DNA of 63,148 nt, counting the filler, from Collodictyon triciliatum (Eukaryota), in the NCBI GenBank assembly GCA_043381765.1. It is 5 parts of 5 records of this genome, joined end to end, with 100 filler letters (N's around TTAATTAATTAA, not from the genome) between each part and the next. Parts side by side here need not be neighbours in the genome. Positions count along the whole stretch, not along the records: positions 1 to 23,074 come from JBHJMP010000670.1; 4 more parts are not named here. One strand, written 5' to 3'. A model generated the notes under the pieces. The model had not been told where the DNA came from. It saw nothing but the letters and a program-made list of their open reading frames with translations, and did no database searches. Below, one piece after another: positions 2,504 through 58,489 of this stretch. The position numbers were made by a program, and so were the translations under genes. Position 1 is the first letter of the stretch, and each line of letters starts with the position of its first letter.

Positions 2504-5500
2504 TTCCACACATGCTTACTATTAAACGACAAAGGGAACCCCCTATCTCTTTTGTATACATTTTCATAGGCATTTTTCGTGAGATAAAGAAAACGAAAAC
2601 GAAAACGAAACCTTAAAATCGTGTGTACTTGAAACCTGCTGGGGTGTCTCTACTTCTATAACTTTTTTTCCTTTGTGTAAAATAAATTAAATGATTTTCG
2701 TCTTGAATAAAGCCTTTATCATCACTATCATTGAATGTATGCAAAGAAATCTCTCGGTCTGTCAAATAACCTTGTGTTTGCTGAGAACAAACCGGACATG
2801 TCAACATGTTTCCTATCAAGTATGAATATAACACGCTCTTTTTAGTTGTAAGCGAGTGTTTTGAAACGGACCAAATTTGGTAGCATCAGTATATCTTTTC
2901 TTCCTCTCCATTTATTCAACAAGACTAGGATGATATGGCCTTGGTTTAATAGCCTCTATTTACACATTATCTACTTGATATTGGCGGTGTGTCTGTATAA
3001 CATCGGTGTATCATATTTTATTCATCAAACCTTCTTCGACAGCAAAGCAATCTGGACAGATCAGGTGGTCACACGGATAGCGCATTAGTTTCTCGACACA
3101 ATCGAAGCAGGCTTGACACGGGGTGTACTCTCCCATTGCTTGCATGTCCTGTATATATATTAAAACTCCTGAATTACTTTCATGGAAAAAAAAAAGGAGA
3201 GAAATAACCGATGGATTTATGAACCAGACTATAATTGAGTTGTCGTGTTTGCTACATAAAATATACCTTATCAATCAATAATCCTGGTAACTGTGCCTCA
3301 GATGACAAGAAATCTTTTGAAACACTTCTAGTGTTTGATGTTCCTCGAGCGTAGCAAAGAAAGGGGTGATTGCAGGCCTGGCGAAGTCTGAGAAGGAGCT
3401 CCAAAATTACGCTGTAGTTTTTGAATATGGTTCCTGCCTGCAAGTTTTATGATTTGCATGTAACATACCCTAAAATTTTCTTCGTCTCACCAAGCCAATT
3501 ATTATGAAGGAGAATGCATATGAAGTTACATATGGGCATTATTTATGTGGTATAGTAACCTCTGAAAATGATTCAAACTTCACACGCGAAGTAGACCACA
3601 ATAAATGATAAAATTGGTTTTCTGTTTCGTCAAATGTGTACCGATGTATTTTAACCTGGGAGTAAAGTATATATCATTTCAAATAATTTTATCCTCAAGA
3701 TTGTGAAAGGATGGTGGCTGAATGACCACCAATTAGGATTATAGGATGGAATTATATTATTACGGAAGTATAGTAAAACAATATTTAATATCAAAAATCT
3801 TACAACTTTGGGTGACATACAGACGATAGGTTGGTCTTGCACTTTCTGATCTTTCGTTCGGCGCAAAAGAATCCACCGAAGAATATTCTAGTTAATATGA
3901 TAGAATTTTATGAAACAGATGCTCTATTTTAAAGATAACACCATGGTAGGAATAAAAAAAAATCTGTAAACTCTTTCAAACTATTTGTGTAATGGAAGAA
4001 TGTTGATACCTGCAATCTGGTAAGCCCTTTCATATCCTGAGCTCTGATCGGCTTTGTAATATATTGTGTCCACCACCCAAGCCTCCCTTACAATAATTGA
4101 ATGATAGATAAATACAACTCAATGTCCAAGAATCAAAAATGATAAGCCTTTATTTTTTTTCCTTTATTCGACTTAAAGAATATTAAGCCTGCATTAAATT
4201 TTGCGTCGTGCAGGGCTAAAAGCAAGTGATTTTTTTTTTTCGTACAGAATTTTCAAGCTACTTACCATATGGCTCGAGGCGAAGAAACTGAATCAAGCTA
4301 AAAATGTCGTCCAGTTTATTCTGGAGTGGGGTTCCTAGAAGCCGAGTATGAAATTGAAATGTATTGCCCAGACACAAGTTACCAAAAGTATAACATCACA
4401 AATAATGATTCCCTCTTCCTATCAATTTTCTTCTTCGTTTTACACTTTTATTAAAGAAAAAAATTAAATATTGTAAATCCGCTGAAAAGTTACCAGTAAC
4501 ACACCACCGGCTTTCTGCTTCTAGGCTTGCTGCGGCACGTGCACTGCGCGTAGTCCTATCCTTAATGATGTGTGCCTCGTCCAGAATTACACGGTACCAC
4601 CTATCTCATAGGACAGTAAGTGAATGTTGATGTCTTGTTTTAAAAGGACAATCCTTTTATATTAGTTTGGCGAGTATCCTTCAAAAAAGTATACGAATTG
4701 AAAACGGACTTGATTTTTTCTAATGGAGCAACAGAGTTTAACAATTTAGGATTGTTGCCAGGGATATGGCTATTTCTGGATTATTAATGTGATATAAGAA
4801 AACATGAAAGAAAATAATAGTCTTATAGAATTCGAATAGAGGACATATAGTCATATGTATGATTTGAATGATGTATGGGGATGAATCAAAGTACATTACT
4901 TGTCATCTATTGAGTATCCCACGTGTTCGGTTGCAAGGGTTGAATAAGTAGTGATGACAATATCAAACTGGGATAGAAATATGGGGTCTTTCTTTCGAGA
5001 CCTGGTATTTAAAATCAGTTTCGAAATGGTTATAACAAACAAAATTTCTGTGGATGGCATCATTTTTATCTAAGCTGCTCACTATTATGTCTCCATTAAA
5101 TGAATGATAATTATTGATGATACTTGAATCAATCTAACCCTGAATGGTATGAATAGATTGACAGGCCTGGCTCCAGAGTGGACCGTCGAATCTCAGCCGC
5201 CCATTGGTCCATTGTTGTTAAAGGACATACAATCAAAGTACCTTTCGAGTAGATGTGGGAAGCAAAGTCTCCTGCGAACATTTTTTTTTTATAATAGAAC
5301 GTTCAGCAATTGGAAAAATATCAATAAACAGTACAGTATGTACATGTGCATATATCTATAGACTCATACTTGGAGGGATACTTGGAGGAATGCAAGAAAG
5401 GCTTGGATTCGAAACTATTAATGCGATCATTTGTATAGTCTTCCCCATGCCCTGTTTCAAACCAATGAAATGAAATGCTTTTTGTATTTGAAAAAAAACT

Positions 5501-8107
5501 TGTTGGAACAATTCAATATATAATGTAAATAAAATCGAATCGAAATGAATGTATAAAAGAATAAAACCTGTTCATCAGCAAGAATCCCACCTCGAGAAAG
5601 ATAGTGTTCGATCTGACTGACACCGGACGATATTTGTAAAGTCGATCCACGGTTGCCGACCTATTTTATATGAACAGAAAGGGAAGAAAAAACTTGATTA
5701 AAAGCATTCTTGTGATAATTATACGGGTTTATACATATTGAGCATGACTACAAAACTCATAAATTGACAGATGAAACTGGTAAATAAAATTACTAACATT
5801 AAGCATTAAGCATTAATAAATGAAAAAAAATAAGAATATTCGAGCCCACTTGAGGAGACAAGAATGAGAAGCTGCATTGGCTCATCTGTGTGACATCCTT
5901 CTGCTCGGGATTCGCTGATGCTCGTTTCAACACATTTTCTCGATTACACCTTGTTTTTTTTTAAAAAAATATATATAATCGTTATAATTGTATTCATAAT
6001 ATTACGTTTTTCAGGAAAGCAAACAAGTTTCCATGTTCCTTTAATTGATGAAAGAGAATGTTTATTATACATCCAAAACAATGCTTGCTTCTGGTAGTGG
6101 TGAAGTTTCAGACAGAATCGAGGATTGGGCTCCATGGTTTCACCAAGGTCATCTGTCTAAATAGTGGTAGTTGCCTCATAAAATTTTGGACAAAATGTAA
6201 ATAAAAAAAAATAAAAAAAAGTTGAGAGTAGCTCTTTTCTTATATTTGTGCTGATATATTCAAATACCAATTACTATATTTCCTATGTAATTCATCGTCT
6301 TTGAATCAATTAAAAGAAAGTTAGCATGCTTTGTATCAGAAAAATAAATAATCTCACCTGGAAATCTGTCAAAAGGTTTTCTATTTTTGGATCTGATGAA
6401 TAACCAGGTACTGGAACATCAGAAGTGTTTTGTAAAATTTTGCTGAGATGTTCGGCCGAGTATTTGAAAATAAATCAATGCATAAGTCAGTAAATGATAA
6501 ATTCATGTTTTTTTTTATTTTTGTTTTTTGCTTTCGAAATGGACAGAAAGTTGTATTTACATAGAGGAGGATTTTTACATATTGTCAGTTGGTATGTAAT
6601 ATCCGAAAGCTTGTTACCACCTTCCTGGCATAGGTGGATACGTGATTGATCGACTCAATGGAACCCGCGAACGAAGCGTGGTTGGTCGTTTGGCTGGATT
6701 TTCATCTTCCTCCTTGTTCGTTTGAGTCTCATAGCCTTGTATTGAATTACTGGATATGATTTCTACAGTTGCTCCTTTTCTTGGGGTAGAGCCTTTTGGA
6801 ACATAAGATCATAGTCAAAGTGGCAAATTTACAAGGCGCGCCATTTTATTTATTTTTAACTATGCAATTGTATTTTCCACCAAACTAAAAGTAGTCATAA
6901 TTTTAGGAAATGATACGAAAATGATTCAAACACCTATATTGAGCGGCGCTGATATATCCGGCTTCGAATGATTACTAACGCTCAATGTTGGCTTTGCATT
7001 TAGACTGAAAGGGATGTCGGAAATATTTCTTACAACCACATTTGGCGCAGTGATTGACTGAACTAAAGAAGTGGGTGTTTAAGTGAAGACATTGTTGAAT
7101 CACTCGTATTATAGATAAGTTAAAAAAAAAAAATCCTGCAGCATGGGCCTACTATGGAAGAACTTTTGGCTCAAAGAAACTAAATTTCACCTTTCATCGC
7201 AGTCGGTCGATAGATATCACTAGGAACAACACCGATAGGAATCTCAGGCCCTCCATGTTCTAAAATAATTGATTGAAAGCAGGGCAGTCGGATCGATAAT
7301 GCAAAAAAAGGATTAGAAAATTATCAGAAATATCAAAATATAATCAATTATTGAAATAAAATAAAGAGGAACCAAATGGAATGATTAAGCTAGATGAGTG
7401 CTAAAAGAAAAATATTGCTGATAATCACTGCGCAGCATTTAATAAAAATAAATATTATAATATGCGATGTCAAACTATATATTGTATCGTATTTGCATGT
7501 CCATACCCAAGCTGACAGATCTGCGAGGTATCTGTAAGTTTCTTGTTTGCGATATGAGCGATGTGGGAGGCAGGCTCGTTTTCGAGGTAGAGATGCTTGA
7601 ATTGATTAGTGAGTGGGTTGGCCATGTAGGCTGCAAAAAGGGTGGCTGTGGGGGCAAGTGGAGCGAAGCCTGCGTTGGGGGTGTTTCGGTTTTGACCAAG
7701 CAGCTTCCTTCGGCCCGAACCATTTGTGACACTGCACTTTGGCCTGTAAAGAATTCCGAGTCTGTTTGTAGTGGAGAGCTGCGTGTCCTTGGTGTGCGGG
7801 CAACGGGCGTGTATGAATGTATCTCTGAGTCGAACTTGGGTTCGTAATGCGCGTTTTCGTCAAAGTATTCGTTTTGCCATATTGAAGAAGGCTCGCACAA
7901 TTCTGAAGGATTCAGGGTGTGCAAAGCGGAGCGTGTAGGCGAGTGGGCCGTACGAAGGAGCGAGGAGGACTGTGTGTTATGCAGAAGCGAAGATGGGGCA
8001 GGGCTAAAGCGAGAGTCATTTTCTGTTTGGCTTCCAAAGTCGTGGGTGTCGAATGAAAAGGAACCAAAGAAATCCTCGTTGTCACTGCCATTGTCAAAGG
8101 GCTCCAT
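1500..8107 (-). CDS. SNF2-family helicase with RING finger (RAD5/RAD16/HLTF-like), multi-exon
   Basis: Motifs [60 protein letters not shown], a RING ([17 protein letters not shown]), [41 protein letters not shown]. First exon is ORF 7475..8107. Confidence 0.93.
4153..4178 (-). mobile_element. Degenerate copy of ~28-bp A-tailed micro-element in a RAD5 intron
   Basis: Reverse complement is CTTTAAGTCGAATAAAGGAAAAAAAA. Flanked by an imperfect 15-bp direct repeat, AATGATAAGCCTTTA (4138-4152) / AATATTAAGCCTGCA (4179-4193). Confidence 0.6.
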
Positions 8108-8698: not shown

Positions 8699-11600
8699 AT
8701 GACAGGGAGTCTGAGTGCAGCTGCGTTGAGTCGCTTGTTTTGTTTGCGAAAGACAAACACACTGCTTCTCGTTGTCTTGTGCGTGGCCTGGTCGCTGGGC
8801 TTTGTGTTTATATGGATTACGGACCTTGGCTCGGGGAGAATCGTCGCGCGGCCGGACGCCGTGGTCAGCAACGGCTTTGCATTCCTTGGCCCGCCTGAAC
8901 ACCGCTCCGGATACTTGCAAGGACAAAATAATCTGGCAGAAGAGGCTCAAAAGGGTTCTCCTTTTCTCCTTTTCTCCTTTTCTCCTTTTCTCCTTTTCTC
9001 CTTTTCCTCTTTTCTTTGTCTTTTGTCGTTTGTCTTTTGTCTTTTGTCTTTTGTCTTTTGTCTTTTGTCTTTTGTCTTTTGTCTTTTGTCTTTTGTCTTT
9101 TGTCTTTTGTCTTTTGTCTTTTGTCTNNNNNNNNNNNNNNNNNNNNNNNNNNNNNNNNNNNNNNNNNNNNNNNNNNNNNNNNNNNNNNNNNNNNNNNNNN
9201 NNNNNNNNNNNNNNNNNNNNNNNNNNTCTTTTGTCTTTTGTCTTTTGTCTTTTGTCTTTTGTCTTTTGTCTTTTGTCTTTTGTCTTTTGTCTTTTGTCTT
9301 TTGTCTTTTGTCTTTTGTCTTTTTTTCTTTATTGTTATTGTCATCGTTTTTGCCTTTTTGTGTCATTAGCCGGTCTTTTTTATTTTTATTTTGTTTTTAT
9401 TTTGTTTTTATTTTGTTTTTATTTTGTTTTTATTTTGTTTTTATTTTGTTTTTAATTTGTTTTTATTTTGTTTTTAATTTAATTTAAGATGACATTAAGA
9501 ACCTAGTTATATTTCCCATATGATAATAATGATAATTTTTTTTTGGTTTCTTTTCAACAGTATGATAATAATGATAATGATAATGATAATAATTCGTTTG
9601 TTCGATTCAAAGAATAATAGTAGCTGACCCCATTTTGCAACATGTAGCACCTGCTCATGATGGCTTATTTTATCTTATATAATTGTTTGTTCGTTTGTTT
9701 ATTTTAACTCGCCAACCAAATATAATAACCAAGGTGCTCGCCTCTTACACTCTGAAAGACCCTCACAAACATATAGAACTGATAGCACGGTAATATCAAT
9801 ACCTAAATTCGATTTCCTACGTAAATCACATGTGCAATCTCCCTGTAATAAATAAAATCTTAAATTAAACTTTATCAGCTGGACAATTTACACTTTGAAG
9901 AGCTCCTTAGAAAAATTGTCGATCCTTCAACAAACTCCCTTATTGTCACATTCACAAACTCTGGATTTATCGAATTAACTTACAATTGGTTGGCATATTT
10001 GAAGTTACTCGGCCTGAAAAACTATCTGATCGTCTGTTTTGACGAATTGGCATGCAAAAAGTTTGTTAGTATATGCTTGCATGTGCCTATATCGATCGAC
10101 TAAATATTTTGTGACAGATTGAATGACTACGGGGAATATAACTGTTATTATAATCAATCTGCTGGCCCTCTTCCGACAAAACCAGAAGCCTATGGTTCAG
10201 AAAACTATATAAAGTTGGTAAATTGGAAGCCAAAGTACACCCTTTCTCTAATAAAAAGAGGTAAGCATATGGCATCTACCAATTTTGAATTGAAATTTAT
10301 TTGTGCACCAATTTTTTACACTATCCCTTTTTTTTTTCAATTATTATTCTCAAACTTATGCACTCTACCTTCTATTGATATCCTTTATGCTATTCGGTAA
10401 GGCTTTACCTTTTCATCGTAAACATGGCATTTGTACTTGAAGATGCATCGTATATAATCGACTCTCAAACATGCAGGATATAACATATTGGTCACTGATG
10501 TTGATACTATTTGGAAGCATAATCCTTACAACTACTTGCTTCAAACTTGTGACCTTGAAATCGAAGTTGATACAATTAATTATCCAAAAATCCCAAGAAA
10601 CTACACCCTGTCATGCATGAAGCGGAACCCCTCTGTTTATTTGAGGTTTTCATATCACATTAACATTAATCCCCACTATATATTATGTATACTTTAAGAA
10701 TTCACGAAATATAACTAGTAAAATCGTAGAAAACATAATATGATATTTCGCCAACATATGTTTCTTACATCTTATAAATAGCACTGGTGTCTACTACATG
10801 AAAAGCAACCTCCGCACGATATCCTTTGTGCAATCGCTGATAGCGTACCAAAGCAATCCGAATTCAACATTCTTTGACCAACCCGCTTTTAACCACGTCC
10901 TATCACAGCAAAATCTCACCATTCGGGCGCTTACTCCGCTTCTTTTTCCAAGCGGGCATCACTTTTTCCTGCAAAAACTTCCCCAGAGACATCATGCATC
11001 CCCATTTATCATACATAATAATGTCCTTGTGAATGGAGACGAAGCAAAAAGACATAGGTACTTGTAGGGGCTTAGTTTTCATGCTTTTTGAAGGCTTTGG
11101 TGACTTCAGTTTGATAAGAACTTTATGGAAACAGAACCCGCCAATGCCTTCAAAACATTCTATTATGTTGGTGGACCAGTGTCATTATGATATATGTAAT
11201 ATGAGTTTCTTTAAAAAAAATTTTTTTTGTAGATTTCGTGAATATCATTTTTGGATTGTCGATCCTGATAAATACTATCAAGGCAATTTCATCACAATCG
11301 AGACACAAGCAGAGTAACCATATTTTCAACTAGCATATATATTGGATGGTTTAAATATGTAGCGAGCTTAAAAGAACCATATGTCATCCAGTTCATGCGG
11401 CAGTGTACTAGATGATCTTAAAAATGGACTGGCTTTAGCCAAGGTGCTCAACAGAACATTTGTTTTACCAACATTCAACTGCAAGGCCATCTGTGTTTGT
11501 TCCTCGAGATGCATCACACGAGTTTCTCATTACATTCGCCCACCCTGCTTCATGAGCGATTTCTTCCAGATGGACTTGGTTTGTCACGCTACGGCGCAAC

Positions 11601-21400: not shown

Positions 21401-22276
21401 CCTATCATTTGTAGTTATACCCGGTATGTCCTTGGATGACTACGGTGCATAATCACCACTTTCACATGCAGGGTATGCGGTCAAAAGTTTCATAATCGAG
21501 CATTGGTTATTTTCAGAATCATCTCTCAGTTAGATGTAGTTCGAGGCTTTGAAATCTGAAAGAAAAAGTAAAATGCATGATATATCATCTTTTTGCTCCG
21601 TTTCTTTTTTGTTCTTTCCTAAATTCAATTCAAGGCCAAACGTTCTAGCTTCTAACAGAATCCACATGAGAATCGCACTATTCGTATTTTCGATTTCAAC
21701 CACATGTAGATACCGAATGGCCGTTAATCAATGCCCGCCATCATTCTTGTGCTATATTCCATCTTGTTTCATCATTATCCTATTTCTTTTGCACGTTGTT
21801 TTTTCGAATCAGAAAGAAAAAGAATCCATTGTATTCTTGTGATTGCATCTGACTCGTTTGTTTGCCCTCTCTCTCTCGTAACTGAACGAACCTGCGGTAC
21901 TAGCTTGCAACCACCACATCTCGGTGTGTCTCTTCTATATGTGGAAACCCTGATTTTCCATAAGCGGTCGGCCTTCAAGAAATGAAGTTCTGTCCAGATT
22001 TGGTCGTACACCAACAGGAGAGGTGCCTTATCAGGCACAACGCACTTGCCCTGAGTCGGCCACCAGTTCGCGCGTGCAGCCCATATTCTCGCTTCCTCCT
22101 TCCACGCATCAAGACAGACATGCTTTTCGATTCCTTTTTTTTTAAAAAAAAAAAAACTGACGACGGTGAGAAACAAAGCAAATAGAATCAGTGTCAGTGA
22201 CGAAAAAGAATAAAGGAAAAAATAGAATATACATTATAGTTTTTTTTATACTGCTAGCACTCTCGCTTTCAGGAAA

Positions 22277-22930
22277 ATGGTTATATCCAAGGATGAGTTT
22301 ATCGAGAAGCTTGAGCTGGACGGAGCAACAGGACAGATGATTGTCACCAGCGGACTCCTGAGCCCCCTGAACTTTGCCCTTGCACGCACGTTGATCACCG
22401 TATATGCCTGGATAGTCCTGATTGCACAGCTTTCCTACTACTTTGACCGCGGTGTTTTTTTCACGTACTTTACTCACTGGAGCTTCATGCTGCTCACAAC
22501 CTATCTGACGGTTTGTTTTGATGGATGACTCCATTTGTTATGCGTTATTTCCTAAATTGTTGATTTCGTGGTAATAACATGCTCTGTTAGATTGTGACTT
22601 ATTTCAGCTGGATGTTCTTCCTGAAAGGCAAAGAGTTTGTCGGGACAAATGTAGTGTTAAACAACTCTCGTCACTGCTTCAAGATTTGGGTCTTGTTTGG
22701 GGTTTGAATAATTCAAGATACAACAGCAATTAGCCATAAAAATCAGTTATTCAAAAAAAGTTAGACATTTTTATAATCCACTCTATCAGCTACACTTTGA
22801 ATCGAATAAAGGAAAAAAAATAATCCACTCTATCAGATTGTTGCTGCTGCTGCTTTTGGCTTGGACGTTATCTACTGGGTTGCTCTATATGATGGAGAGA
22901 ACAGCGGCTGGACAAACTTCCATGTTCACG
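22277..22930 (+). CDS. FAR-17a/AIG1/rolling-stone-like membrane protein, truncated at contig end
   Basis: FFTYFTHWSF, then spliced exons IVTYFSW... and IVAAAAFGLDVIYWVAL...NFHVHG. The YxTxW and H-x-HG motifs match the family. Confidence 0.72.
22790..22819 (+). mobile_element. ~30-bp A-tailed micro-element with perfect 17-bp target-site duplication
   Basis: ATAATCCACTCTATCAG (22773-22789) - CTACACTTTGAATCGAATAAAGGAAAAAAA - ATAATCCACTCTATCAG (22820-22836). Confidence 0.85.
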
Positions 22931-23074
22931 GTGTGAAACTGAAATATATAATATGCGCTTTTCGTTATTTCGGCAAGTCTTTTTTTTTTTTTTTTTTTTT
23001 TTTTTTTCGAATGTAAATTTTTTTTTTTTTTTTTTTTTTTATTTATTCTTTTTTTTTTTTTGTTTTTTTTTTTT

Positions 23075-23174
23075 NNNNNNNNNNNNNNNNNNNNNNNNNN
23101 NNNNNNNNNNNNNNNNNNTTAATTAATTAANNNNNNNNNNNNNNNNNNNNNNNNNNNNNNNNNNNNNNNNNNNN
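23075..23174. other. Artificial scaffold-joining spacer (N44-TTAATTAATTAA-N44)
   Basis: Six-frame stop linker embedded in Ns; the same linker occurs at 36752, 41203 and 50537. Confidence 0.95.
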
Positions 23175-23291: not shown

Positions 23292-26200
23292 ATGACACAG
23301 CCTGACTTTGGAAAAGCAGTTCGAATCCTTAATGAAGCGCAGCGCACTAGTGCATATCACTCACGCTTGATACCTGAACTGAAAAGCCTCCATTCCGCCG
23401 ATCCCCAAAGAGCCACAGCTTTTTTGCTGCAAGCCATCGATCGCGTCTTGGTGATCGACAAAAAAGAGCCCCCTGCTGATAGACTGGTACCTGACTTGAT
23501 ATGACAAATCAGTGCTGTCGATAACAAAATAACTGGAATGTAATTAGCCTTGTTTTCGTTTCGAATACTAGTTAAAATTGGTCTTAATCATACTGGTACA
23601 ACTTCCATCACATAAGGTGGACTTTTTCGTCGCCTTTGCTGTCCACACTTCAGAGCAACATGTGCAGGACGAAGAGCTCATATCTGAAATCCTTCACCAT
23701 CTGCTCTTAAGGGCAGGGGCTAAAAGCAGATACGTTCGTGCCAGGGCCACACAAATGATAGGCGGAGTAATGCTTGGATTAAGTGAGGATGCAGAAATCA
23801 GGTATAGTAAGCATGATTCCCAACCCAAAATTTGGGGATTACATAATTATTACCCTCCTGCTGATATATTTGTACATGGAAAGTACTTGTCATCGATACA
23901 AATCTCAATCCATACCATCATATAATCGCAGTGGAGATCTCTTTGACAATATTCAGAACGCAATCTTACAGAGGAGTAAAGACAAGGTAAACCAAATTTG
24001 AAATCTCTAATGCCCCAACACAAATATATTCTAAAAAAAACTCTTGTTCTCGTGCTTATCTCGTGGATGTGCTGCTCCATCATTCATATCATAGTGGTAT
24101 CATTTGGAATGCATTTTGAAAAATTGAGACGTTTACCTCAGTTCTTGGAAACAGGTTCCTATGGTTAGAGCACAGGCGGCATCTGCCCTCATGAGACTTC
24201 AAAGTGCGGATGAAACAGACGACCCAGCCACCAAGGAATTGATACGCCTAATGACATACGATGCATCCAGGTTTCTAATCCTACATCACCTCCCTCTTTT
24301 AAGAGTAACGTTTTATCATCGAATATTCAACGAACATAAAGCCTAATCACTACTATTTTTCTGATAAAAGTGCTTTTTTTTTATGGATCTAAATACACAG
24401 GGAAGTACGTCAAGCTGCTTTATTGAATGTTCAACTGTGTAAAAATACCTTCCCTTCCATACTGCTAAGGTCACGGGATGTTTGTGAAACAGTTCGGAAG
24501 ATTTTATATCAGGTACAGTGTCATAAGCCATAATAATAGCACAATCCAAAAATCAGAGTGCAACTGTATAAAATATATTTCAACTCAAATGAGCTATCTT
24601 ATCATGCTGTCAAGGAAAAACTAGTTCATCATTTATGTTTAGTTCACTGCATATAGCGTGGTATGTTCCTAATGAATCAAATCCTTCAGGATGTTCTTGC
24701 AAATAAAATCACCATCAAGGCACTGAGTATTTCACAAAGAAACAATATTCTGAGAGATGGGATGAACGATAGGTACATACACAACACTTACTTTTCATTA
24801 TGATATCTTCCATCAATCATTTTCTTTCCCGTGTACTCTTATTTTGTGAAATGGGGTAAACATAAGCTGTATGTCGATTATTTTAAAGTTTGCTACCTGT
24901 TAATACAGGAACAAATATGTCACCCAATCATGCCTGGTAATGCTAAATGCTTGGTTCAAACACTTCAAAAATGACCCTTTGCAAGTAAGGACCAATATTT
25001 TACAAAATGTGACGAATCGATGGCACTTTCCTTGTTCAGATATCATCTTGTTAAACGAAAACCCTTACATATCAGCTCATTGAAGCTCTAGATCTTGAAA
25101 ATTACGAAGACAACATCGTACAGTCCATGAAAATTCTCATCAAGTCAGGAACAACACCAAAGCCTGAGCTCCTACCTCCTATTTCGCCCGAAAAAGTGCT
25201 TTATTTCCGCCTTTATGTCGATTGTCTTAAGGTAAATATTATATTGCTAACTTGCCGAAAATAATATATTTAAATACTGGGATTTTTATGAGAACAAAAT
25301 AAATGTCTCTCCGACACTTGTTATTGAGCCTCTAAGTTTTAGTAGATCGAAACAACTACACATTTGCTCGCACCTTCTAAGTTTAAACCACACTCACAAA
25401 ATCTATCTTTTTTTTTATTTTAACAATCTAAGGAGGAAAGAAAGGAAAGCTTGTTGGATGATGTGATTCCTGAAGTGCTGCAATACGTTCGTATGATGGA
25501 AGAAAACACACAAACTCCAACACTCATTCAGCTACTTAAAGCAGCAGTACACTTGGATTACCATGACGAAGTTGGTAGAAGAAAAATGGAATCAGTTCTC
25601 TGTAAATTCAAATATTATATTCATATGCATACATTGTATCCCATAAAATGATTGCATATCTTAGTAATTTGATGAAGATATTCTCCAATATATTCCCTAT
25701 TTAAAATCAATACCCAAACTAGACACATTATCCTTGAAGAGTAACGATTCAGAAGATTTGATCCCAGCAATACACACTGCACTTCGTGCATTATATAAGA
25801 ATGATAATATATGGATTAGGTAATCCGAATTCTTCAAACTTTTGCAAATATATTTACAGGCGCTTATTTAAAAAAAAACTATGGGGTTCTATAATTCTGG
25901 CCTAGTCTATAACTCTTATTTTCTTTTTTTGGCGCTTGGGTTTAAAAATAAATAATACTACTAAATCTCACCAAAACGCCTAGAGAGTCTTGCCTTCGCC
26001 TAGGGTCAGTGGTGAAGGATACCCTCCAAAAAAGCGAGCAACTCAAAGAAACGAAGATTTACTACCAAGAAAGAATCTCAACTGTCCGCCAAAATATCAA
26101 GAAAACCGAGGATTTGTTGGTTTCTTGCCAGTATCGAAGTGAAAATGATGAAGTGGCCAGATATTCTCAGGTTATATCCAAATGCAATTTATATTATGTA

Positions 26201-27415: not shown

Positions 27416-27502
<87 letters not shown>

Positions 27503-36707: not shown

Positions 36708-36989
36708 NNNNNNNNNNNNNNNNNNNNNNNNNNNNNNNNNNNNNNNNNNNNTTAATTAATTAANNNNNNNNNNNNNNNNNNNNNNNNNNNNNNNNNNNNN
36801 NNNNNNNTGCTTTTGCTTTTGCTTTTGATTTTGATTTTGATTTTGATTTTGATTTTGATTTTGATTCCTGGGAGGGAACTGTTGTATCCTGGGCAAGGGA
36901 TTTCCCCAGGACTACAGATAGAATACACAGCTTTCATGGAAAACCTTTCTCAACCACAGGATGGAACTCTTGGACGGTTGGCAACAGTT

Positions 36990-38170: not shown

Positions 38171-41030
38171 GTGCTCTTAATTTATGTAAGACACTGAGAT
38201 GAATGGAAAAAAAAAAAAGTAACATATTTACAATATCAACACACCCGAGAATTGATATCTCCTTACAGCTCTTGTTAAGGCGTTCAGGCTCTCTGTATCC
38301 TTCAGAAATGCGACTACAGCGGAGCACCAAAACAATGAGCAGGAGAAATCAGATGAAAGTGACTAATAATATGGATAAAAAAGAAAATGGTACAGCAGAA
38401 ATAGTTCGATTATGTTTTGCTTCAATGAGTATTATGATAGCGATAGTGATCCCGATAAAGATAATAAATAGGTACTAATCGTATCGGCAGCCCAGTGTTT
38501 CTTGTGCTCTCTCCTTCTTGTCACATACTTTAATATGACTCTGGGTGATTAGATTTATAGTTAAATTCATCTCTAGGATAGCAAATCTATAGAATAGCGT
38601 ATTTTTAATCTAGTTTAAGATGTTTACGGTTTTAATTGATGAATAACAAACTTTTGTAAGACTCGAGTACCCCAGCGCCTCTTTTTTCCTAACATTCGAG
38701 CTTTGTATCGCCGATAAGCTCTCTGAATGATTATGACGGCTCGGAACTCCAATTCTGCACGATATCGCTCATAACGAATTTTCTACACGGATTATTCGAT
38801 TATGTACGTTGACACGATAACAGGCGATATAATAATGGGTTAGAATTGCTTGTGTTCTTGTATCTTTGCGTGTTTGTTTGTTTGTTTGTTTGTTTGTTTG
38901 TTTGTTTGTTTGTTTGTTTGTTTGTTTGTTTGTTTGTTTGTTTGTTTGTTTGTTTGTTTGTTTGTTTGTTTGTTTGCTATTTATTGGTTCGTTTTTTGTT
39001 GTTTTTTTCTTAAAAGAATGCTTCGATTTTTATTAAATAAACTAGAATAAACTGTGTGGTTGTCTACTTTAAGAACTTGGTCAAAGAAAAAATGACGCGC
39101 TCCCAGAGAGACAAGCCACCCCCATCTCCTTTGATTGTTGAATCGGTCTTGTACTTCAAATTCTCTACGATTTCTATGTTGCTCCTAAAGTATCTCTAAG
39201 TGCTTTTCTTGCGCCATGTGTCACATTTCCATTAATTTATAATGATAGGAAACTTATGCGAAGATATATATGAATTTTAAGTGAACCTCTTCAATCATAA
39301 TTCTACGTCGTTCAGACCTTTCTTTTCTCTAATTGTAATGTAAATATTGAAAGAAATGAAAGAGATGATGTGTGGGTGATATTTGAGTCAGTTTGTCACC
39401 TTACACTTTTTTTTCCTTTATTCGATTCAAAGTGTTGTCACCTTACATTTATTAGGGGATGAGGGATATTCCCTTCTTTTCAATTAAGAAAAATGAAAAA
39501 AGAAAAAGAAATGAATGTATGTACATAAAAACATATTTGTTGTTTGTCTCTTTTAAAATAAATCGATTTTCATGCTCCTTACAAGCTTTTCAAGTCGGAT
39601 TCGATATGGCACGGCTTGTTCACTCAAATCTATATGAGGTCTTTGATGTTTCTTTTGTTCCAATATGGTATCTGGAGTAAACAGGTAAAATGATTTTGTT
39701 TCTTAAAAATATTGTTAATGTGTCTTTTTAATAAAAAAAAAAAAAAAAAAAGTAATGACAGTGGTGGTCCTTGCGAAAGGGAAACAAACTTTGGGGGCAA
39801 GTAGAGAACCAACTGTGAAAATACTTGAATTATGGTTCTTTAAATTATTGTTCGGCTTATAGATAGATAAAAAAAATCGAAGAGGAATTGACAGTATTTG
39901 CTCGATGTTATGAATTTCATACTAATCTTTTGTTTAAATTCTACGTAATCTTCTGGATTTGATTTAATTCTATCGATTTTTTGGAATATATCTTCAATTT
40001 TTCCTTCCGGTCGAATAACTGACATGGCATCCTTATGTATGAGAATTAAATTAATTTTTAAGGTTTCTCCTTTTTTAAAAAAAAAACTTAAAATTTCAGA
40101 GACAACTAGTATTATCTTCCTTTTTTTTTTCTTTTTTTCTTTTTTTTTACCGATGCTTTTGTTTGCTTCAGGTAATGAGCAGACGAAGAGACTTTTTCGA
40201 TATTCCTATCCACATCTAAACATGTTTAATATGAACGGTAAAGAGAAAGATTAAGGAAGGGAAGAAATTGTATGACAATTCACTTATTCCTTTGTTCTTA
40301 TTTTAAAATAGAGAAGAATATGATCAAAATAATAGTAATTGTCGTGTTTAAGTAACATCCATAAAAAAAATTCTTTCATAGAAAATAAGCGAGAAATAAA
40401 TACAAAAAGTACTGTAAAAATCACTTTTTCTTTCAGTCACCCTAGTATCATCGTCTGTTCCAATCTCTTTATGGCTATGCTCCAATTTTTTAACTTCCTC
40501 TATAATCATAATATCAGATTAGCTAGGCCTTTTCTATAATATATATATACCGTGAATTACACTATTAAATTTGTCTTGTTCTGCTCTTTTCAATTCTTCA
40601 TTAAGGAGTATAATTCAGTGGGTGAATAGCGAGGTGAAAAATGGGGAAACAAATCACTAAGTATTTGTATCAGTTCTTTGAATCGAATAAAATAGGGGGG
40701 GGGGGGGGGGAAAAAAATAAAAAAAAAAAAATAACTAATTAAAAAAAAAAAAAAGTAAAAAAAAAAAGAAAAAATAAATAAGCATCAATTAACATTAGAT
40801 TTTACCTATGAGGTGTTGAACATCAGCAATATTTCTTTCAAATGTCTTTTGTCCTTCTCTCATCTTTGCCTCTGAATTCTCTAGTAGTGTTGAATCTGAT
40901 GAAGATATACCAGCCCTGTGTCCTTGTGTGTTGAGAAGGTGAAGAACTGTTTCTACTTGTCGATTCGCTCTTCTGGTCAGCACACTGAGGGAGGAACTTA
41001 ACTCGTTGCCCTAGTCTCATTCTCCATGTA
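36990..41030 (-). CDS. 3' part of an uncharacterised IQ-motif/coiled-coil protein
   Basis: Minus-strand exons include AVIIIQRAYRRYKAR (IQ motif, ~38650-38785), ORFs 40795-40983 and 39840-40025, an S/R-rich penultimate exon (~37204-37330) and a terminal exon ending at 36990. Confidence 0.55.
39406..39434 (-). mobile_element. ~29-bp A-tailed micro-element with perfect 13-bp target-site duplication
   Basis: TTGTCACCTTACA (39393-39405) - CTTTTTTTTCCTTTATTCGATTCAAAGTG - TTGTCACCTTACA (39435-39447). Its reverse complement matches the 22790 core exactly. Confidence 0.85.
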
Positions 41031-41480
41031 TCAGAGGTACATTATATTTTCTTATTTCATTTAGTGTTGGGCGACGTGAACCCGAACGAGCCAAAATATC
41101 ATATTACTTTTTTTTTCTTTTTTTCTTTTTTTTTCTTTTTTCTCTTTTTTTTTTTTTTNNNNNNNNNNNNNNNNNNNNNNNNNNNNNNNNNNNNNNNNNN
41201 NNTTAATTAATTAANNNNNNNNNNNNNNNNNNNNNNNNNNNNNNNNNNNNNNNNNNNNCCGGAACAACAAAATATCTGATGTCTTTTTTTTTAAATTCCT
41301 ATGAAAAATAAAAAAAAAACAATGGCAAAAAAAAAAAAAAAAAGTTATGACAGTGTATTCGTCAGCTAATATTACGCATGAAAACTTTGAGGTGCACCCT
41401 CATCTGACACAAAAGCATAAAATGAAAATCTTTGATGTCACGGCAACATATGTGAAATCCTCGTCGCAGAATGAATGCAC

Positions 41481-42587: not shown

Positions 42588-42680
<93 letters not shown>

Positions 42681-53143: not shown

Positions 53144-54732
53144 CTGACCTAGTGCTTTTACCTTTCGATTAATATGAGACATTTTAGCCTATCCTTTTTA
53201 CCCTGTCGACGCTATTTTTTAATCTTGATATCCAAAGCTTGTCATCTATATGGCTTATTTCGTATAAAATTTGCCCACTGTTTACACATTATAGCGTAGC
53301 GTGTATTCGTTAGATTGCGCACTAATTTTTAAGCAAATATATCGTTCCACTATTTTCAAAATGATAATAAATAAATAAATAAATAAATAAATAAAAATAA
53401 TATGTGAAAGCCAGGGTCAGTTTGTGAAACTTTAAATCTCCTGAAAGTTCCCAATAAGGTTGATGTAATAGTGTGTATCCAAGTAGATATATACTCTGGA
53501 ATATAAGATATGTATGCAAATAGACATACCTACCGCAACCAATTTTTTTTCATTTCTTTTTCCGATGCCTTAACAGTCATAATGGTCTCAAGAGAATGAT
53601 ACTTGAAATAATAATATTTCCCCCCTTTATTTGATCCGAAGTAAAATAAAATTAAAATAGTATAGACAAAGCATCAGCGGACGAAAGGAGATGAACGAGT
53701 CTAGGGTATCAAAGCCGATTTCTAATCAAAATTGCAATATCTAATGATTATGAGTAGTCTAGAATGCATAGTTTATTCATAAGAAGAACATTTGAAATCT
53801 CATTTCTAAAAAGAGCATACAACAGGAAAACCCAAGACGGATGCTGAGCTAATCATCATGGATTTGTAATCAGTAATCAGCACACTTGAAAACCCCCTGG
53901 AATGAGTTTGTTGCCCATAAACAAAGCATTTTCAAACTGCACAATAGTCAGGACGACGGACTTTGCAGCCCTTAAAAAGACCTCTGAAGATTATTGACGT
54001 ATAAGACAATATTCCGGTCATCGGCACAACCGAACCGAAGCCACCCAAAGTTTCACAGTTTGAACCCAAAGGCCATTGACACGAAACCACCACCCGAACC
54101 ACACACCCCCCATGGGACTCCAAATACGGGAGCCTGATTACAGGGCCGATTGCAATCTACTTCCTTAAGCGGACTGACGAAAGAGGAAAAGGCGATTTGC
54201 ATCTGCGCTATTTATAAAGCAGAATCCCGGTTGCGGCAGACGATCAAAGGGCGGCGCGGTTGAACCCGATCGACAAGCAGCAAAGCAGTGGGCGTTTGTA
54301 GTGTGACTTTGGGAGCGCGTGAGCGTTTATATGTTGAAGTACTCGTGGGTTTGTTGGGCCGGTGGGTTTTCAGACCTGATCGGCGTTTGTTCCCTGGGCG
54401 AGCAGAGCAGACGACTTGGCCTTTAGCTTGTAGGGCGCACGATGCACAAAACACAGAGCTGCGGCAGAGAAAGTCTATGGTCTCCCCTCTCTCAGACCTT
54501 CTCCGCTTTTCTCGGCGCACAGACAAAGGAAGAAAGGGAACAAAGATCAAAGACATATATATATATAATTATGATAAAAATAGTAATTGGAAAATAATCG
54601 TCTATGTGCACAGTTAGAAGCCGCCTCTGGTTGCCATGAGTAGGGCCACTTCGGGTCCGATGACACTGCTGGGCAGTTCGCATTCCTCCATGGTGAGTCC
54701 ACACGCGCTGACTCAGAATCCTTCGCATCTCA

Positions 54733-54998: not shown

Positions 54999-57900
54999 TG
55001 TATGTATGTATGTATGTATGTATGTATGTATGTATGTATGTATGTATGTATGTATGTATGTATGTATGGTGTGGTATGGTATGGTGTGGTGTGGTGTGGT
55101 ATGGTATGGTATGGTGTGGTGTGGTGTGGTGTGGTGTGGTGTGGTGTGGTGTGGTGTGGTGTGGTGTGGTGTGGTGTGGTGTGGTGTGGTGTGGTATGGT
55201 GCACATCCAATCAATTTATCAACAAAATTCACTCGCAGAAGTCGACCGAGTTCGCTACAATCTGTCGGGCAAATGCATCGCTTCAATCTTTTCACGTGGG
55301 ACACCGACAGAGATCCAATTTCTTTCACAGCAGAAAGAAAATACCCACCGCTCGCAATTCTGATGCTTTTCCTCTTCGTTCCTCCTTTTATCCTTTCTCA
55401 TACAGGTGACTGTGACGCTATTTACAAGATATGTTTAAAATCTGTATATGAGAACATTTCAAGTACAGATGAATATAATTTTTGAAAGAAAAACAAATCA
55501 GAAATGTCTCATTCCAGTAAACTTTTATGTAATTTAGACGATGAGGGTGCCGACCACATATCCTTTTTTTACATATACGGGTCAATAGTAACCCTGCTTA
55601 TGTGTATTCGAATGTTTTGGTCCTACATGCAAATCAAACGCTCTGGAAAGAACGAGTCCTTCGTTTCCTCGCCACCAGCCATTCTGCTTCTCAGTTCTCT
55701 TGGATATGAGGCAATATTCGCCATCGTCTCAATTTTAGACAGCTATTCAGGACTCGAGGTCTAGTATCTTAAATATTTTTAAATGGTTTATTTGCTAATC
55801 AGGCGAGTTGCACTATTTTTTTATATACTCTGTACTATACTATGCCATTAGACCTTTCATATATGTGATAAACCTGCCTAAAAATACAAACACTCGAAAC
55901 AAACAATTAGGGGACTGACTGTATCGTGTATGCATCTCTAACACAATTTAGTTTATTCGGCTCCATGACTTATTTTGCCCTTCTATCAGTCGGTGAGTAC
56001 AGTATAGATAACAATTTAGTTTACAAAAACTGTATATCTCTCTTTCGTTTAGTCCTGCACAAAAGTTGAAAGGAAGAATAAAAAAAAAATCTCTCTTTCG
56101 TTTAACTTCGGTTAATTCTATCTCTTGTTCTTTCATTTTATTTATGTATATATTTCATGTAACAGACCTCTTGATGTCCGTGGAATTCTCTTTTATGAAT
56201 CACAATACATTCCTCCCACGGTACCATGGAATCGCCTTATTTTGCAGCACTTTCTCTTCGTTTCTTCTCTTAGTAACAAATAATGCTGGTGAATCATTCT
56301 GGCACAGATGCTGGATCAAAAAGACCGAAAGTGAGTAATTTATTGATTCTCACATCGTTCTTTATATGAGTTTACCCTCTTGCACTTTTAATTAAATAAA
56401 TGAATCCTTTTCATAAAGTTTCCAATTAACACAGCAAAAACACACTTTCTCTTTTTCCTTCTTTTTTTTTTTTTAATAAAAAAGAATAAAGAATTCTTAT
56501 CGAGCGCCTTTTGTCCTTCGATTATGTTTTGCTCTATTCTAGATGTTAAAGATCTTAATGTTGTTACGTGGCTTCTTGTGAATATCCCATTCGGGATATA
56601 TTGCATCATCGCACTTGTGACCTTGGGACTGGGTTATTATAGAGCTAATGTTGCTGAAACAAGGTACTTGCCAAATATTTAAAATTTTTACTTTACCAAT
56701 GTCATTGTCTCACCTTGATAACTTTGTTTCGGACATATCTCACTGGTTTCAATGTTCTATTTCATGGTGTAGTATTCATCATTTTTTTTTAACAAACATA
56801 TCATCATTTCTCCCTTCAATCAAGTAGCACCTTTGGCCCGAGTTCAAAAAACTCGGACGAAAAACCTGGGGTCGTTTTTAATTATTTTTTTTTAAAAAAT
56901 TAAAATAAATCGCTGTTATTTTCTTCTTTCTTGGCCGTATAGAACAGAAAATTTCCTTGCTATAGATTAGTTATTAAAATTCTTTTTTTAAACAAAACAA
57001 AACAAAACAACTGCTTATAGAGGGATAAACTTGTTTCTCAATTAAAAGAGATTCTAAAAACTCAAGCAATACAAACATTCATAATCGGGTAACACTACTA
57101 GCATTGTATAATAATTTTCCAATAAAAAAATCCGCATTCTTTCGTGATTCAATCATAAATAAATCCATTTAACGAAAAATTGCTTTGTGCATTAAAGAAT
57201 TCACTATGTCACTATCGGTGCCTTTTACCTGGCATTGTTTTTGGATCAATTTAAAGTGAATTGGGCTATGAAATTTTTTGCCTCATTGTGTACCATGAAA
57301 GGTAAATTTCTATTTGATTAAAGCTATGGAACCAGTTCATCTCCTCATTCTCAAACATTGCCTATAATATAAAGCGATTCCGGTTATCATCGTTTGGGAA
57401 TGGAGGTTTCATTCCACTGGCACAAACCAACAAACATTAGAAGACTACACTTTGTCACGTATATACTTTCTTGAATTCTATTATTCGTCCAAGACACCAG
57501 TTAATAAAATAAAATTAACAAATAAAAATTAGCATAATCCAATATGAAAATATTCCGGAGTGATTCTTCATTATTTTTTTTTATGTTCCTTACCACCATA
57601 TTGCCAAAATTAAAAAGGAATAGTTATTTTTATAAAAAGCATCTATTCTTTTTTTTTTAATTTATCTATCATTTCGTATGATTTACCATGTGGTATTTAT
57701 AGGTCTTGCCGAATCACGACGACTAGATATTATGCAAACATGCTCATCATGTATTATGGAGACAGCAGAGGTATCGCTGTACGAAAGCAAAAAATCATTT
57801 TTATATTCAGTCGCATGCTCACTCTATTACTGCAATACTTTTTTCTGATTTAGTAGCCATATAATCTAATAGATAATATCCCTACATACAGATGTCAGCC

Positions 57901-58489
57901 GGACCTCCATACACAGTTGCAGGAAGAGCAAAAGAAAATGACTTCGAGTCAGGTTTTTTTTTCCAACAATTCGAGTTTATAATTAGTAAAGTCTATGATT
58001 TGCGATGAAATATATTGTTCAAACGCGATAATTTGTCGTTGCTTTTTTCTCCACGGCATTTCAATAAGTCTCTTTAATTTCATTTAGTTCTTTCTTTAAA
58101 CATTCGAGGCCAGCACTCTGGAGTACAATATCAATTCAAATCATACGCTATGCGCGTATTCCGTCATATTCGCGAGTCATGCAAAGTTACAACAGAATAC
58201 TACACAAATTCTTTCCAACCAGAAAAAGGTCACTATCTATTTAACTTTTAATTGTTTGAAAATCTAAAAACCCTTCCTTCCCTTCAATCGAATAAAGGAA
58301 AAAAAAACTTGTAGTTGTTTGAATTATTATATTTTAACCCATATTTGATAAAGTAAAATAAATGAAGATAAATGATTGTATCTTAAAACACAAAGGTATG
58401 CGCGAGCGCTTCTCTGAAGGAAAGAGTGGGAGTTTTCTATACTTTACCGGCGATTCCAAATTTATTGTCAAAACAATGGTTTATTTCCT

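What the first reader, a model, noticed from the sequence alone, without database searches (positions are those of the whole stretch)
22773..22836. Dispersed ~28-bp A-tailed micro-element with 13-18 bp target-site duplications
Seen: the motif (A)CACTTTGAATCGAATAAAGGAAAAAAAA occurs at 22790-22819 (+, perfect 17-bp TSD), 39406-39434 (-, perfect 13-bp TSD), 58261-58305 (+, 16/18 TSD) and 4153-4178 (-, 11/15 TSD). Weaker copies lie at 40676-40720 (G-run expanded), 9593-9612 (-) and 6299-6320. They sit in introns of unrelated genes on different scaffolds, in both orientations, with a range of divergence. Established: an AATAAA plus A-tail with variable ~13-18 bp TSDs is the signature of target-primed reverse transcription by APE-type non-LTR elements. 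Inference: similarity stops at nearly the same point (CTTTG) in all copies, which fits a fixed tiny RNA template or a strong RT stop better than random 5' truncation. CTTTG-AATCGAA-TAAAG can form a 5-bp stem with a 7-nt loop, like LINE/SINE 3' recognition hairpins. This could be an undescribed, extremely short SINE-like family.
Basis: partly seen in the sequence, partly recalled or inferred. Interest (0 to 1): 0.82.

Follow-up and report, generated by a model that had tools for sequence, protein, structure and literature searches.

The report
Ultra-short truncated LINE tails with TSDs
The repeated ~30-base A-tailed pieces are real retro-insertions, but they are the last 16-24 bases of an L1-like jumping gene rather than a new tiny SINE; what is unusual is how uniformly short they, and unrelated neighbouring inserts, are.

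Summary
The 18-nt motif occurs 8 times against 0.13 expected. Two copies carry perfect, complex TSDs of 17 and 13 bp, and two carry imperfect ones.

A metagenome contig (L001) carries the same tail plus A10, preceded by a 93-nt 3' UTR and the frameshifted C-terminus of an ORF2 with a zf-RVT domain. Full-length relatives have APE + RT + zf-RVT and align best to human L1 ORF2p. Contigs from independent runs also continue from the tail into this UTR. The micro-element is therefore the extreme 3' end of an L1-like LINE, not a separate SINE.

The proposed hairpin is negligible at -0.3 kcal/mol. The 5'-end pile-up is nevertheless real: no body fragments and no population of shorter tails exist in the window. 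Three unrelated A-tailed, TSD-flanked inserts of 24-37 nt lie nearby.

Best reading: target-primed reverse transcription captured after about 30 nt. No whole genome was available, so copy-number and length censuses remain open.

The parts
22790..22819 (+). Focal micro-copy: the last 23 nt of the LINE 3' UTR plus A7. The boundary with the TSD's first A is ambiguous.
   Evidence: 100% identical over 32 nt to L001rc 1023-1054. Sequence read.
22773..22789 (.). Left copy of the perfect 17-bp TSD. It ends in the original intron's 3' splice acceptor AG.
22820..22836 (.). Right copy of the 17-bp TSD. Its AG (22835-22836) is the acceptor actually used.
   Evidence: Loose ends of RNA-run X5 contigs join 22701 to 22837.
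22702..22836 (+). GT..AG intron of 135 nt that contains the element and both TSD copies. It would be 88 nt without the 47-nt gain.
   Evidence: X5 record 22 loose end and records 24/25. Sequence. The neighbouring intron 22510-22589 is skipped by the same contig.
39406..39434 (-). Second intact micro-copy: 20 nt of the tail, A8 and one G. Perfect 13-bp TSDs at 39393-39405 and 39435-39447.
   Evidence: (29 nt, 100%).
4153..4178 (-). Older micro-copy: 18 nt with 2 mismatches plus A8. Degraded TSD (7-nt perfect core, about 13/17 overall).
58261..58307 (+). Variant copy. 58283-58307 matches the tail (24/25). The 20 nt at 58261-58280 do not match L001 and may be extra 5' nucleotides or a subfamily. 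16/18 TSD at 58243-58260 and 58306-58323.
40676..40691 (+). Degenerate copy: 16 nt exact, then a G17 run and A-rich sequence. No TSD found.
9593..9612 (-). Degenerate copy (2 mismatches). No A-tail and no clear TSD. It sits next to an (ATTATC)-like microsatellite.
6299..6319 (+). Doubtful or very old copy (3 mismatches, no tail, no TSD).
53624..53641 (-). Doubtful or very old copy (3 mismatches, G4 then A-rich, no TSD).
56052..56088 (+). Unrelated 37-nt A-tailed micro-insert (28 nt plus A9) with perfect 16-bp TSDs at 56036-56051 and 56089-56104.
   Evidence: It does not recur in the window.
9537..9560 (-). Unrelated 24-nt A-tailed micro-insert (16 nt plus A8) with 18-bp TSDs at 9519-9536 and 9561-9578. 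The TSD is fairly repetitive.
22189..22219 (+). A 31-nt A-tailed micro-insert that shares only the last 9 nt with the family. 9-bp direct repeats at 22180-22188 and 22220-22228.

Best explanation
The copies are extreme 5'-truncated insertions of an undescribed L1-like (APE endonuclease + RT + zf-RVT, poly(A)-type) LINE.

Proposed steps:
1. The element's endonuclease nicks the target.
2. The A-tail of the LINE RNA pairs with the nicked strand, and reverse transcription starts.
3. After only about 16-24 nt of 3' UTR (about 30 nt with the tail) the nascent cDNA is joined to the other side of a staggered break 13-18 bp away. This leaves a TSD.

Unrelated polyadenylated RNAs seem to give inserts of the same size in this window. 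The short, peaked length is therefore best ascribed to the insertion or repair process (early capture of the cDNA by host end-joining, or early RT release). It is not well explained by a special tiny template or an RNA hairpin.

Shown: the copies, their TSDs, the identity to a LINE 3' end, the absence of structure, and the size class. Inferred: the enzymology and the reason for early termination.
For: Parent element:
- L001 carries the identical tail plus A10 after a 93-nt UTR and an ORF2 C-terminus (zf-RVT PF13966, 32.4 bits against a cutoff of 27.5).
- The HMMER search gave 14 hits at E<=1e-3. They include a 98%-identical fragment and four full-length proteins of 1226-1275 aa. All four have Exo_endo_phos + RVT_1, and three of the four also have zf-RVT.
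- The best solved match is human LINE-1 ORF2p at E = 3.4e-57, against about 1e-23 for R2.

Window copies:
- Only L001rc 1023-1054 matches the window. No body matches by blastn or tblastn.
- TSDs: perfect 17 bp and 13 bp, plus 16/18 and about 13/17.
- TPRT geometry against mirrored control: 7 vs 2 at TSD >=10 bp, and 5 vs 1 at TSD >=13 bp.
- Three unrelated micro-inserts of 24-37 nt lie nearby.

Other runs:
- Many contigs align only to 22789-22822.
- Of the 10 contig ends listed before the element, 3 read on as the L001 UTR with one base different. The other 7 show unrelated flanks.
- There are 14 contig ends behind the element, in 10 rows with different letters.

Structure: no stable fold and no Rfam family.

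Literature: passages of PMC4760211 propose that host end-joining factors join the LINE cDNA before reverse transcription is complete, and list extra nucleotides as a class of 5' junction.
Against: - A simple constant-rate stop model is rejected. It predicts about 54 copies with 6-15 nt of tail for the 4 A-tailed copies, and at most 1 is seen. Some unexplained feature therefore sets a preferred length.
- No whole genome was held. I cannot show that the long LINE is in the same genome, nor give the genome-wide length distribution.
- L001 is a single metagenome contig cut at its 5' end. EN and RT are seen only in relatives about 30% identical.
- The sample is small: 4 good and 4 weak family copies, and 3 other inserts.
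- The endonuclease target motif is weak. 4 of 5 perfect TSDs start with A, but only one is preceded by a clear T-run.
- The focal insertion itself is not bridged by any independent contig.
Confidence: 0.7

Rival explanations
1. A dedicated tiny non-autonomous retroelement. A discrete short RNA (for example a processed or sliced 3' fragment of the LINE transcript that keeps its poly(A) tail) is the preferred template, which gives a near-fixed 5' end.
For: The 5' ends cluster within 8 nt (L001rc 1023-1031). There are no shorter tails and no body fragments in the window. Geometric and uniform truncation models are rejected. In run X3, 31-nt unitigs covering 22792-22820 have depths of 100 and 28.5 against 2.8-6.6 for neighbouring single contigs. 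This fits many copies that diverge just upstream, though depth is not a copy number.
Against: The 5' ends are not identical (tail lengths 23, 20, 18 and 16 nt). Unrelated inserts have the same size. There is no room for a promoter or head. No ribozyme or known RNA lies in L001 and no structure. Long copies with the same tail exist.
Confidence: 0.13
2. Ordinary broad 5' truncation plus survivorship. The LINE inserts at all lengths, but in this compact, gene-dense region only the tiniest insertions are tolerated. Longer copies lie in repeats or unassembled gaps.
For: The window is gene-dense with short introns. Housekeeping domains occur throughout, and introns of 80 and 88 (+47) nt are seen. 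It has 15 N-runs. Long copies exist elsewhere.
Against: Selection against length would favour the very shortest inserts most. Yet tails of 6-15 nt and A-only inserts with TSDs are essentially absent. The distribution has a lower bound as well as an upper one.
Confidence: 0.12
3. Not mobile DNA at all: a chance AT-rich motif, a conserved polyadenylation or regulatory motif, or an assembly artefact.
For: The motif contains AATAAA and an A-run in a genome of about 36% GC. Exact 22-mers also occur by coincidence inside bacterial genes (L002, L003, L004).
Against: There are 8 hits against 0.13 expected. Long complex TSDs abut the copies. The copies occur in both orientations, and one lies in a spliced intron. 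The same unit with many different flanks appears in four independent runs. The tail is identical to that of an RT-encoding element.
Confidence: 0.03

Closest known systems
5'-truncated insertions of L1-clade (APE + RT, poly(A)-type) LINEs made by target-primed reverse transcription
   Same: A-tail, variable 13-18-bp TSDs and both orientations. The copies are collinear with the 3' end of an ORF2-encoding element. Full-length relatives align best to human L1 ORF2p. A 5' junction with extra nucleotides is possible at 58.3 kb; that junction class is named in passages of PMC4760211.
   Different: The copies retain only 16-24 nt of the element, and the lengths are tightly peaked rather than broadly distributed. 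A-tails are short and uniform (A7-A9 in young copies). The LINE family itself carries no name in any source.
LINE-mobilised SINEs that share their partner's 3' tail; the ~100-bp Platy-1 is called the shortest known primate SINE in the abstract listed for PMC4864456 (search listing only)
   Same: Short, dispersed, A-tailed and TSD-flanked, with a 3' end identical to a LINE 3' end.
   Different: There is no head, promoter or body. The whole unit is LINE UTR. The 5' end is not fixed to the nucleotide. At 16-24 nt it is about a quarter or less of the length of that SINE.
L1-mediated processed pseudogenes and retrocopies of cellular mRNAs (described in passages of PMC11702581)
   Same: The unrelated micro-inserts at 56.0, 9.5 and 22.2 kb look like 3' ends of other polyadenylated RNAs inserted in trans with TSDs.
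   Different: They are only 24-37 nt long, and their source RNAs were not identified.
Stringent-type LINE/SINE 3' recognition stem-loops (recalled from general knowledge, not from a call)
   Same: A 5-bp stem with a 7-nt loop can be drawn.
   Different: The fold is not stable (-0.3 kcal/mol, z = +0.36). The element is poly(A)-type.

Membership tests
5'-truncated copy of a poly(A)-type, APE-bearing (L1-like) LINE | The sequence is collinear with the 3' end of an RT-encoding non-LTR element. | tested here: met
   The window copies match L001rc 1023-1054 (32 nt at 100% and 29 nt at 100%). L001 upstream encodes a zf-RVT ORF2 C-terminus.
5'-truncated copy of a poly(A)-type, APE-bearing (L1-like) LINE | A 3' A-tail. 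| tested here: met
   A7-A9 in 4 of 8 window copies and A10 in L001. The 4 weak copies lack a clean tail.
5'-truncated copy of a poly(A)-type, APE-bearing (L1-like) LINE | Target-site duplications of variable length that abut the insert. | tested here: met
   Perfect TSDs of 17 and 13 bp, plus 16/18 and about 13/17. There is none at the 4 weak copies. The mirrored control gives 1 against 5 at >=13 bp.
5'-truncated copy of a poly(A)-type, APE-bearing (L1-like) LINE | The parent encodes an APE endonuclease and a reverse transcriptase. | tested here: inconclusive
   L001 is cut at the contig end after 202 + 133 aa. EN + RT are seen only in relatives of 29-38% identity (P0009-P0012).
5'-truncated copy of a poly(A)-type, APE-bearing (L1-like) LINE | Longer or full copies with the same tail in the same genome. 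| not testable with these tools
   No genome is held. Indirect evidence: contigs of runs X1 and X2, which also hold parts of the window, continue from the tail into the L001 UTR.
5'-truncated copy of a poly(A)-type, APE-bearing (L1-like) LINE | An L1-type target motif (T-rich, then the nick, then A-rich). | tested here: inconclusive
   4 of 5 perfect TSDs begin with A. A clear T-run precedes only the 22.8-kb site.
SINE | A 5' head with an internal pol III promoter (tRNA-, 7SL- or 5S-derived). | tested here: not met
   The entire non-A part (16-24 nt) is LINE 3' UTR, so there is no other sequence inside the TSDs. I did not run a tRNA finder.
SINE | A defined, shared 5' end. | tested here: inconclusive
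   The 5' ends spread over L001rc 1023-1031. They are clustered but not identical.
SINE | A 3' tail shared with a partner LINE. | tested here: met
Stringent-type 3' stem-loop recognition element | A stable stem-loop at the 3' end, conserved in structure. | tested here: not met
   MFE -0.3 kcal/mol, and 92 of 200 shuffles fold at least as well. The 197-nt L001 3' end has z = -0.72.

The most novel reading that the evidence does not exclude
In this organism the L1-like machinery works in a distinct regime. Target-primed reverse transcription of any polyadenylated RNA (its own RNA most often) is captured after a preferred ~16-28 nt plus a short A-run. This produces a genome-wide class of ~24-45-nt 'micro-retrocopies' with full-size TSDs. 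Because the TSD can duplicate a splice acceptor, even hits on intron-exon borders are tolerated. The peaked length would then report a fixed step of the TPRT and end-joining cycle (for example the timing of second-strand cleavage, or the RT footprint). Alternatively it could report a discrete processed 3' RNA fragment used as template.
Probability: 0.3. Interest if true: 0.65.

Novelty: new variant of a known kind. Interest (0 to 1): 0.45.

Why it matters
What sets the length of 5'-truncated LINE insertions is still debated: RT processivity, or capture of the intermediate by host repair (passages of PMC4760211). A genome in which nearly every detectable TPRT event, whatever its template, ends after about 30 nt would be a natural system for studying that step.

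Such inserts are too short for routine repeat annotation, which I state from general knowledge. They could therefore be an overlooked source of small insertions in introns and at splice sites. The 22.8-kb copy shows how a TSD can duplicate a splice acceptor and keep the gene spliced.

If a complete genome shows an ordinary broad length distribution instead, this is simply a new L1-like family with truncated tails.

Tried and rejected
- Whole genome: none is held.
- Earlier findings of the scan: none for this genome or this sequence. Three word-matched notes from other genomes describe ordinary truncated LINE tails or one-off inserts.
- RT or EN in the window: 0 of 186 ORFs of >=75 aa hit an RT or endonuclease family at E<=0.01. 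tblastn of the L001 ORF against the window gave a best E of 6.3.
- The repeat finder on the whole window was swamped by microsatellites and N-runs and was of no use.
- Viral contigs: 0 exact matches.
- Metagenome contigs: 2 matches, of which 1 (L002) is a coincidence in a bacterial gene.
- Prokaryote genome contigs: 2 matches, both coincidences in Flavobacteriales MAG coding sequence.
- Word-based homologue search for longer proteins: none at E<=1e-3.
- Cluster look-up: no informative names; the only one given is 'hypothetical protein'.
- Rfam on L001: only two chance-level lncRNA hits (E 0.12 and 0.82, far below gathering score), so no ribozyme that could define a 5' end.
- Structural RT stop or hairpin: rejected.
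- Sequencing runs: only small shares (<=0.10) in 10 runs. No DNA contig bridged the 22.8-kb site, so nothing can be said about an empty-site allele.
- X2 record 13: it starts at the motif's first base and shows an 8-nt direct repeat in its two loose ends. The repeat does not abut the tail in the printed consensus, so I do not count it as a verified TSD.
- First TSD null: inflated by tandem repeats, and replaced by the mirrored-geometry control.
- Long candidate at 25926-28642 (-): a 2717-nt 'insert' with an A-rich 15-bp repeat that spans an intron-containing condensin gene on the other strand. Judged chance.
- Literature: searches found no description of LINE-tail families this short. That holds for those searches only.
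- Host lineage: one atlas hit points to a eukaryotic FG-GAP cluster in which diatoms are the commonest recorded phylum. This is a lead only.

Full report
**1. Observation**

It is a 17-bp repeat, then a 30-nt unit ending in A7-8, then the same 17-bp repeat. The 18-nt core with up to 3 mismatches occurs 8 times on both strands, against a mean of 0.13 in 100 dinucleotide shuffles (largest 1). A second probe (13 nt plus A5) gives 5 hits against 0.56.

Read on the element strand, the copies sort into three groups:

| Group | Copies | Features |
|---|---|---|
| Intact | 22790-22819 (+), 39406-39434 (-) | Perfect, complex TSDs of 17 and 13 bp that abut the insert |
| Older | 4153-4178 (-), 58261-58307 (+) | A8-A9 tails; degraded TSDs of about 13/17 and 16/18 |
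| Weak | 40.7, 9.6, 6.3, 53.6 kb | No convincing TSD |

My first TSD null was inflated by the window's many microsatellites. I therefore used a mirrored-geometry control, anchoring on every A-run or T-run of at least 6 nt on both strands. The TPRT geometry gives 7 TSD-flanked short inserts and the mirror geometry gives 2, both of them low-complexity. With TSDs of at least 13 bp and inserts of up to 6 kb, the counts are 5 and 1.

**2. What it is**

No whole genome is held. An exact scan of metagenome contigs found two loci. L002 is a coincidence inside a bacterial gene.

L001 is a 1157-bp contig that carries the same tail followed by A10, and it continues upstream for about 1 kb of GC-richer sequence. 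That sequence holds:
- a 5'-open frame of 202 aa that hits Pfam zf-RVT (PF13966, E = 1.5e-7, 32.4 bits against a cutoff of 27.5);
- after a frameshift, a 133-aa frame that is 54% identical to the C-terminus of a related protein, ending 3 residues before that protein's end.

ORF2 therefore stops at L001rc 953, and the 3' UTR is 93 nt.

An exhaustive HMMER search gave 14 hits at E<=1e-3. They include a 98%-identical fragment that reads through the L001 frameshift, and four full-length proteins of 1226-1275 aa at 29-38% identity. All four have Exo_endo_phos + RVT_1, and three also have zf-RVT. The best solved relative of P0009 is human LINE-1 ORF2p (E = 3.4e-57 over residues 3-871), far ahead of R2 at about 1e-23. 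No source gives these proteins an informative name.

In the window, only L001rc 1023-1054 ever matches. The hits are 32 nt at 100%, 29 nt at 100%, 25 nt at 96% and 26 nt at 92%, plus weaker ones. No body sequence matches by blastn or tblastn. None of 186 ORFs of at least 75 aa hits an RT or endonuclease family.

**3. Independent runs**

The organism's own reads are not indexed. Ten runs hold small shares of the stretch 19000-23070. I laid the contigs of four runs on 19000-22970. Not all rows are printed: 51 records and 4 loose ends are not shown.

- The bin containing the element is strongly over-covered: 18, 53 and 448 in X1, X3 and X5, against 0-36 in their other bins. X2 shows no such peak. 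Many records align only to 22789-22822.
- Of the 10 contig ends listed before the element, three (two in X1, one in X2) continue as the L001 UTR with one base different. These are longer LINE copies.
- The other seven (one in X2, four in X3, two in X5) show unrelated or mixed flanks. These are short copies at other loci.
- Behind the element there are 14 contig ends in 10 rows, all with different letters, which means many insertion sites.
- No DNA contig bridges the focal site, so there is no evidence either way on an empty allele.

Run X5 has 37 of its 49 laid records at least 99% alike to the window, and it behaves as RNA of the same organism. One 405-nt contig skips 22510-22589 (GT..AG), and its loose end joins 22701 to 22837. 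Two further contigs show the reciprocal loose end. The sequence confirms a GT..AG intron at 22702-22836. The element therefore inserted flush with the intron's 3' end. The TSD duplicated the splice acceptor, and the downstream copy is the one used.

**4. The 5'-end pile-up is real**

The tail lengths before the A-run are:

| Copies | Tail length (nt) |
|---|---|
| A-tailed copies (22.8, 39.4, 4.1, 58.3 kb) | 23, 20, 18, 16 |
| Weak copies at 40.7, 9.6 and 6.3 kb | about 18 each |

Even the last 6 nt plus A6 occurs only 5 times in the window. Those are the four A-tailed copies and one site at 22.2 kb. A constant-rate stop model fitted to the observed lengths predicts about 54 copies with 6-15 nt of tail, and at most one is seen. 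Uniform truncation over at least 1046 nt is excluded at about 3e-12. These tests rest on few copies in a single window.

**5. Not template-specific, and not a hairpin**

The generic scan found three further A-tailed inserts with unrelated 5' sequence:

| Position | Insert (nt) | TSD (bp) |
|---|---|---|
| 56052-56088 (+) | 37 | 16 |
| 9537-9560 (-) | 24 | 18 |
| 22189-22219 (+) | 31 | 9 |

None of them recurs in the window. Every convincing TPRT-type insert in the window is therefore 24-45 nt long.

The proposed hairpin has an MFE of -0.3 kcal/mol (z = +0.36), and 92 of 200 shuffles fold at least as well. The last 197 nt of L001 have z = -0.72. Rfam finds nothing above chance in L001.

**6. 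Mechanism**

The best-supported reading is target-primed reverse transcription by an L1-like element that ends, or is captured, after about 30 nt of cDNA, with a staggered second cut 13-18 bp away.

Passages of PMC4760211 argue that host end-joining factors join the LINE cDNA to the chromosome before reverse transcription is complete. They also list extra nucleotides as a class of 5' junction, which could explain the 20 non-matching nt at 58.3 kb. Passages of PMC11702581 describe TSD and microhomology features of 5'-truncated L1 inserts and of trans-mobilised mRNAs.

Why the length has a lower bound as well as an upper one is not explained by my data. The rivals are a discrete processed 3' fragment used as template, and survivorship of only tiny inserts in a compact genome. 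Both are scored under rival explanations.

**7. Comparison and novelty**

The copies meet the tested features of 5'-truncated poly(A)-type LINE insertions: collinearity with an RT-encoding element's 3' end, an A-tail, and TSDs. They fail the SINE definition because they have no head or promoter, and the 5' end is not fixed to the nucleotide.

The LINE family itself is undescribed in the sources I could query. My five literature searches found no report of a LINE-tail class this short and this narrow. For scale, the ~100-bp Platy-1 is called the shortest known primate SINE (PMC4864456, listing abstract only).

I rate this a new variant of a known kind: an ordinary mechanism with an unusual, uniform, ultra-short outcome. 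It needs a genome-wide census before anything more can be claimed.

The host lineage is not established. One atlas hit points to a eukaryotic FG-GAP cluster in which diatoms are the commonest recorded phylum. One passage of PMC2806351 mentions only RTE-like non-LTR elements in one marine diatom.

Noticed in passing
window 22702-22836: The insertion sits exactly at an intron-exon border. The 17-bp TSD duplicates the 3' splice acceptor (both copies end in ...TATCAG), and RNA contigs of run X5 use the downstream copy. The intron grew from 88 to 135 nt with no change to the mRNA.
   Followed up: yes
window 56052-56088 (+), 9537-9560 (-), 22189-22219 (+): Three unrelated A-tailed micro-inserts of 37, 24 and 31 nt with direct repeats of 16, 18 and 9 bp. 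They may be 3' ends of other polyadenylated RNAs inserted in trans. Their source RNAs were not identified.
   Followed up: partly
window 40692-40780: The degenerate copy at 40.7 kb is followed by a run of 17 G and then a long A-rich tract, where a simple A-tail would be expected. The origin of the G-run is unexplained.
   Followed up: no
window 25926-28642 (-): An exact 15-bp A-rich direct repeat flanks 2.7 kb that ends in an A-run and spans condensin (Cnd3) exons on the other strand. Probably chance.
   Followed up: partly
window 23075-23174, 36708-36807, 41159-41258, 50493-50592: Four identical patterns of 44 N, 12 bases and 44 N, each inside T- or A-rich low-complexity sequence. There are also 100-N runs and one 559-N run. 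The '100% complementary' inverted repeats reported by the repeat finder at these places are artefacts of the Ns.
   Followed up: partly
L002 3491-3512; L003 234-255 (-); L004 2447-2468: The exact 22-mer also occurs inside bacterial coding sequence. In the two Flavobacteriales MAGs (L003, L004) it encodes ...SFESNKGKLPWP.... These are coincidences, and a caution for motif-only searches.
   Followed up: yes
window 27417-27500 and 42596-42679, and many other places: Very long homopolymer runs (84-nt T and A runs) and abundant microsatellites ((GAAA)n, (TCTG)n, (TATG)n, (GGTGT)n and 9-mer arrays) in an otherwise gene-dense region.
   Followed up: no
L001 (minus strand) about 549-610: The L001 LINE copy is frameshifted within the ORF2 C-terminus, whereas a 98%-identical protein fragment (P0001) reads through. 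L001 is therefore a dead copy of a family that has near-identical intact relatives.
   Followed up: partly
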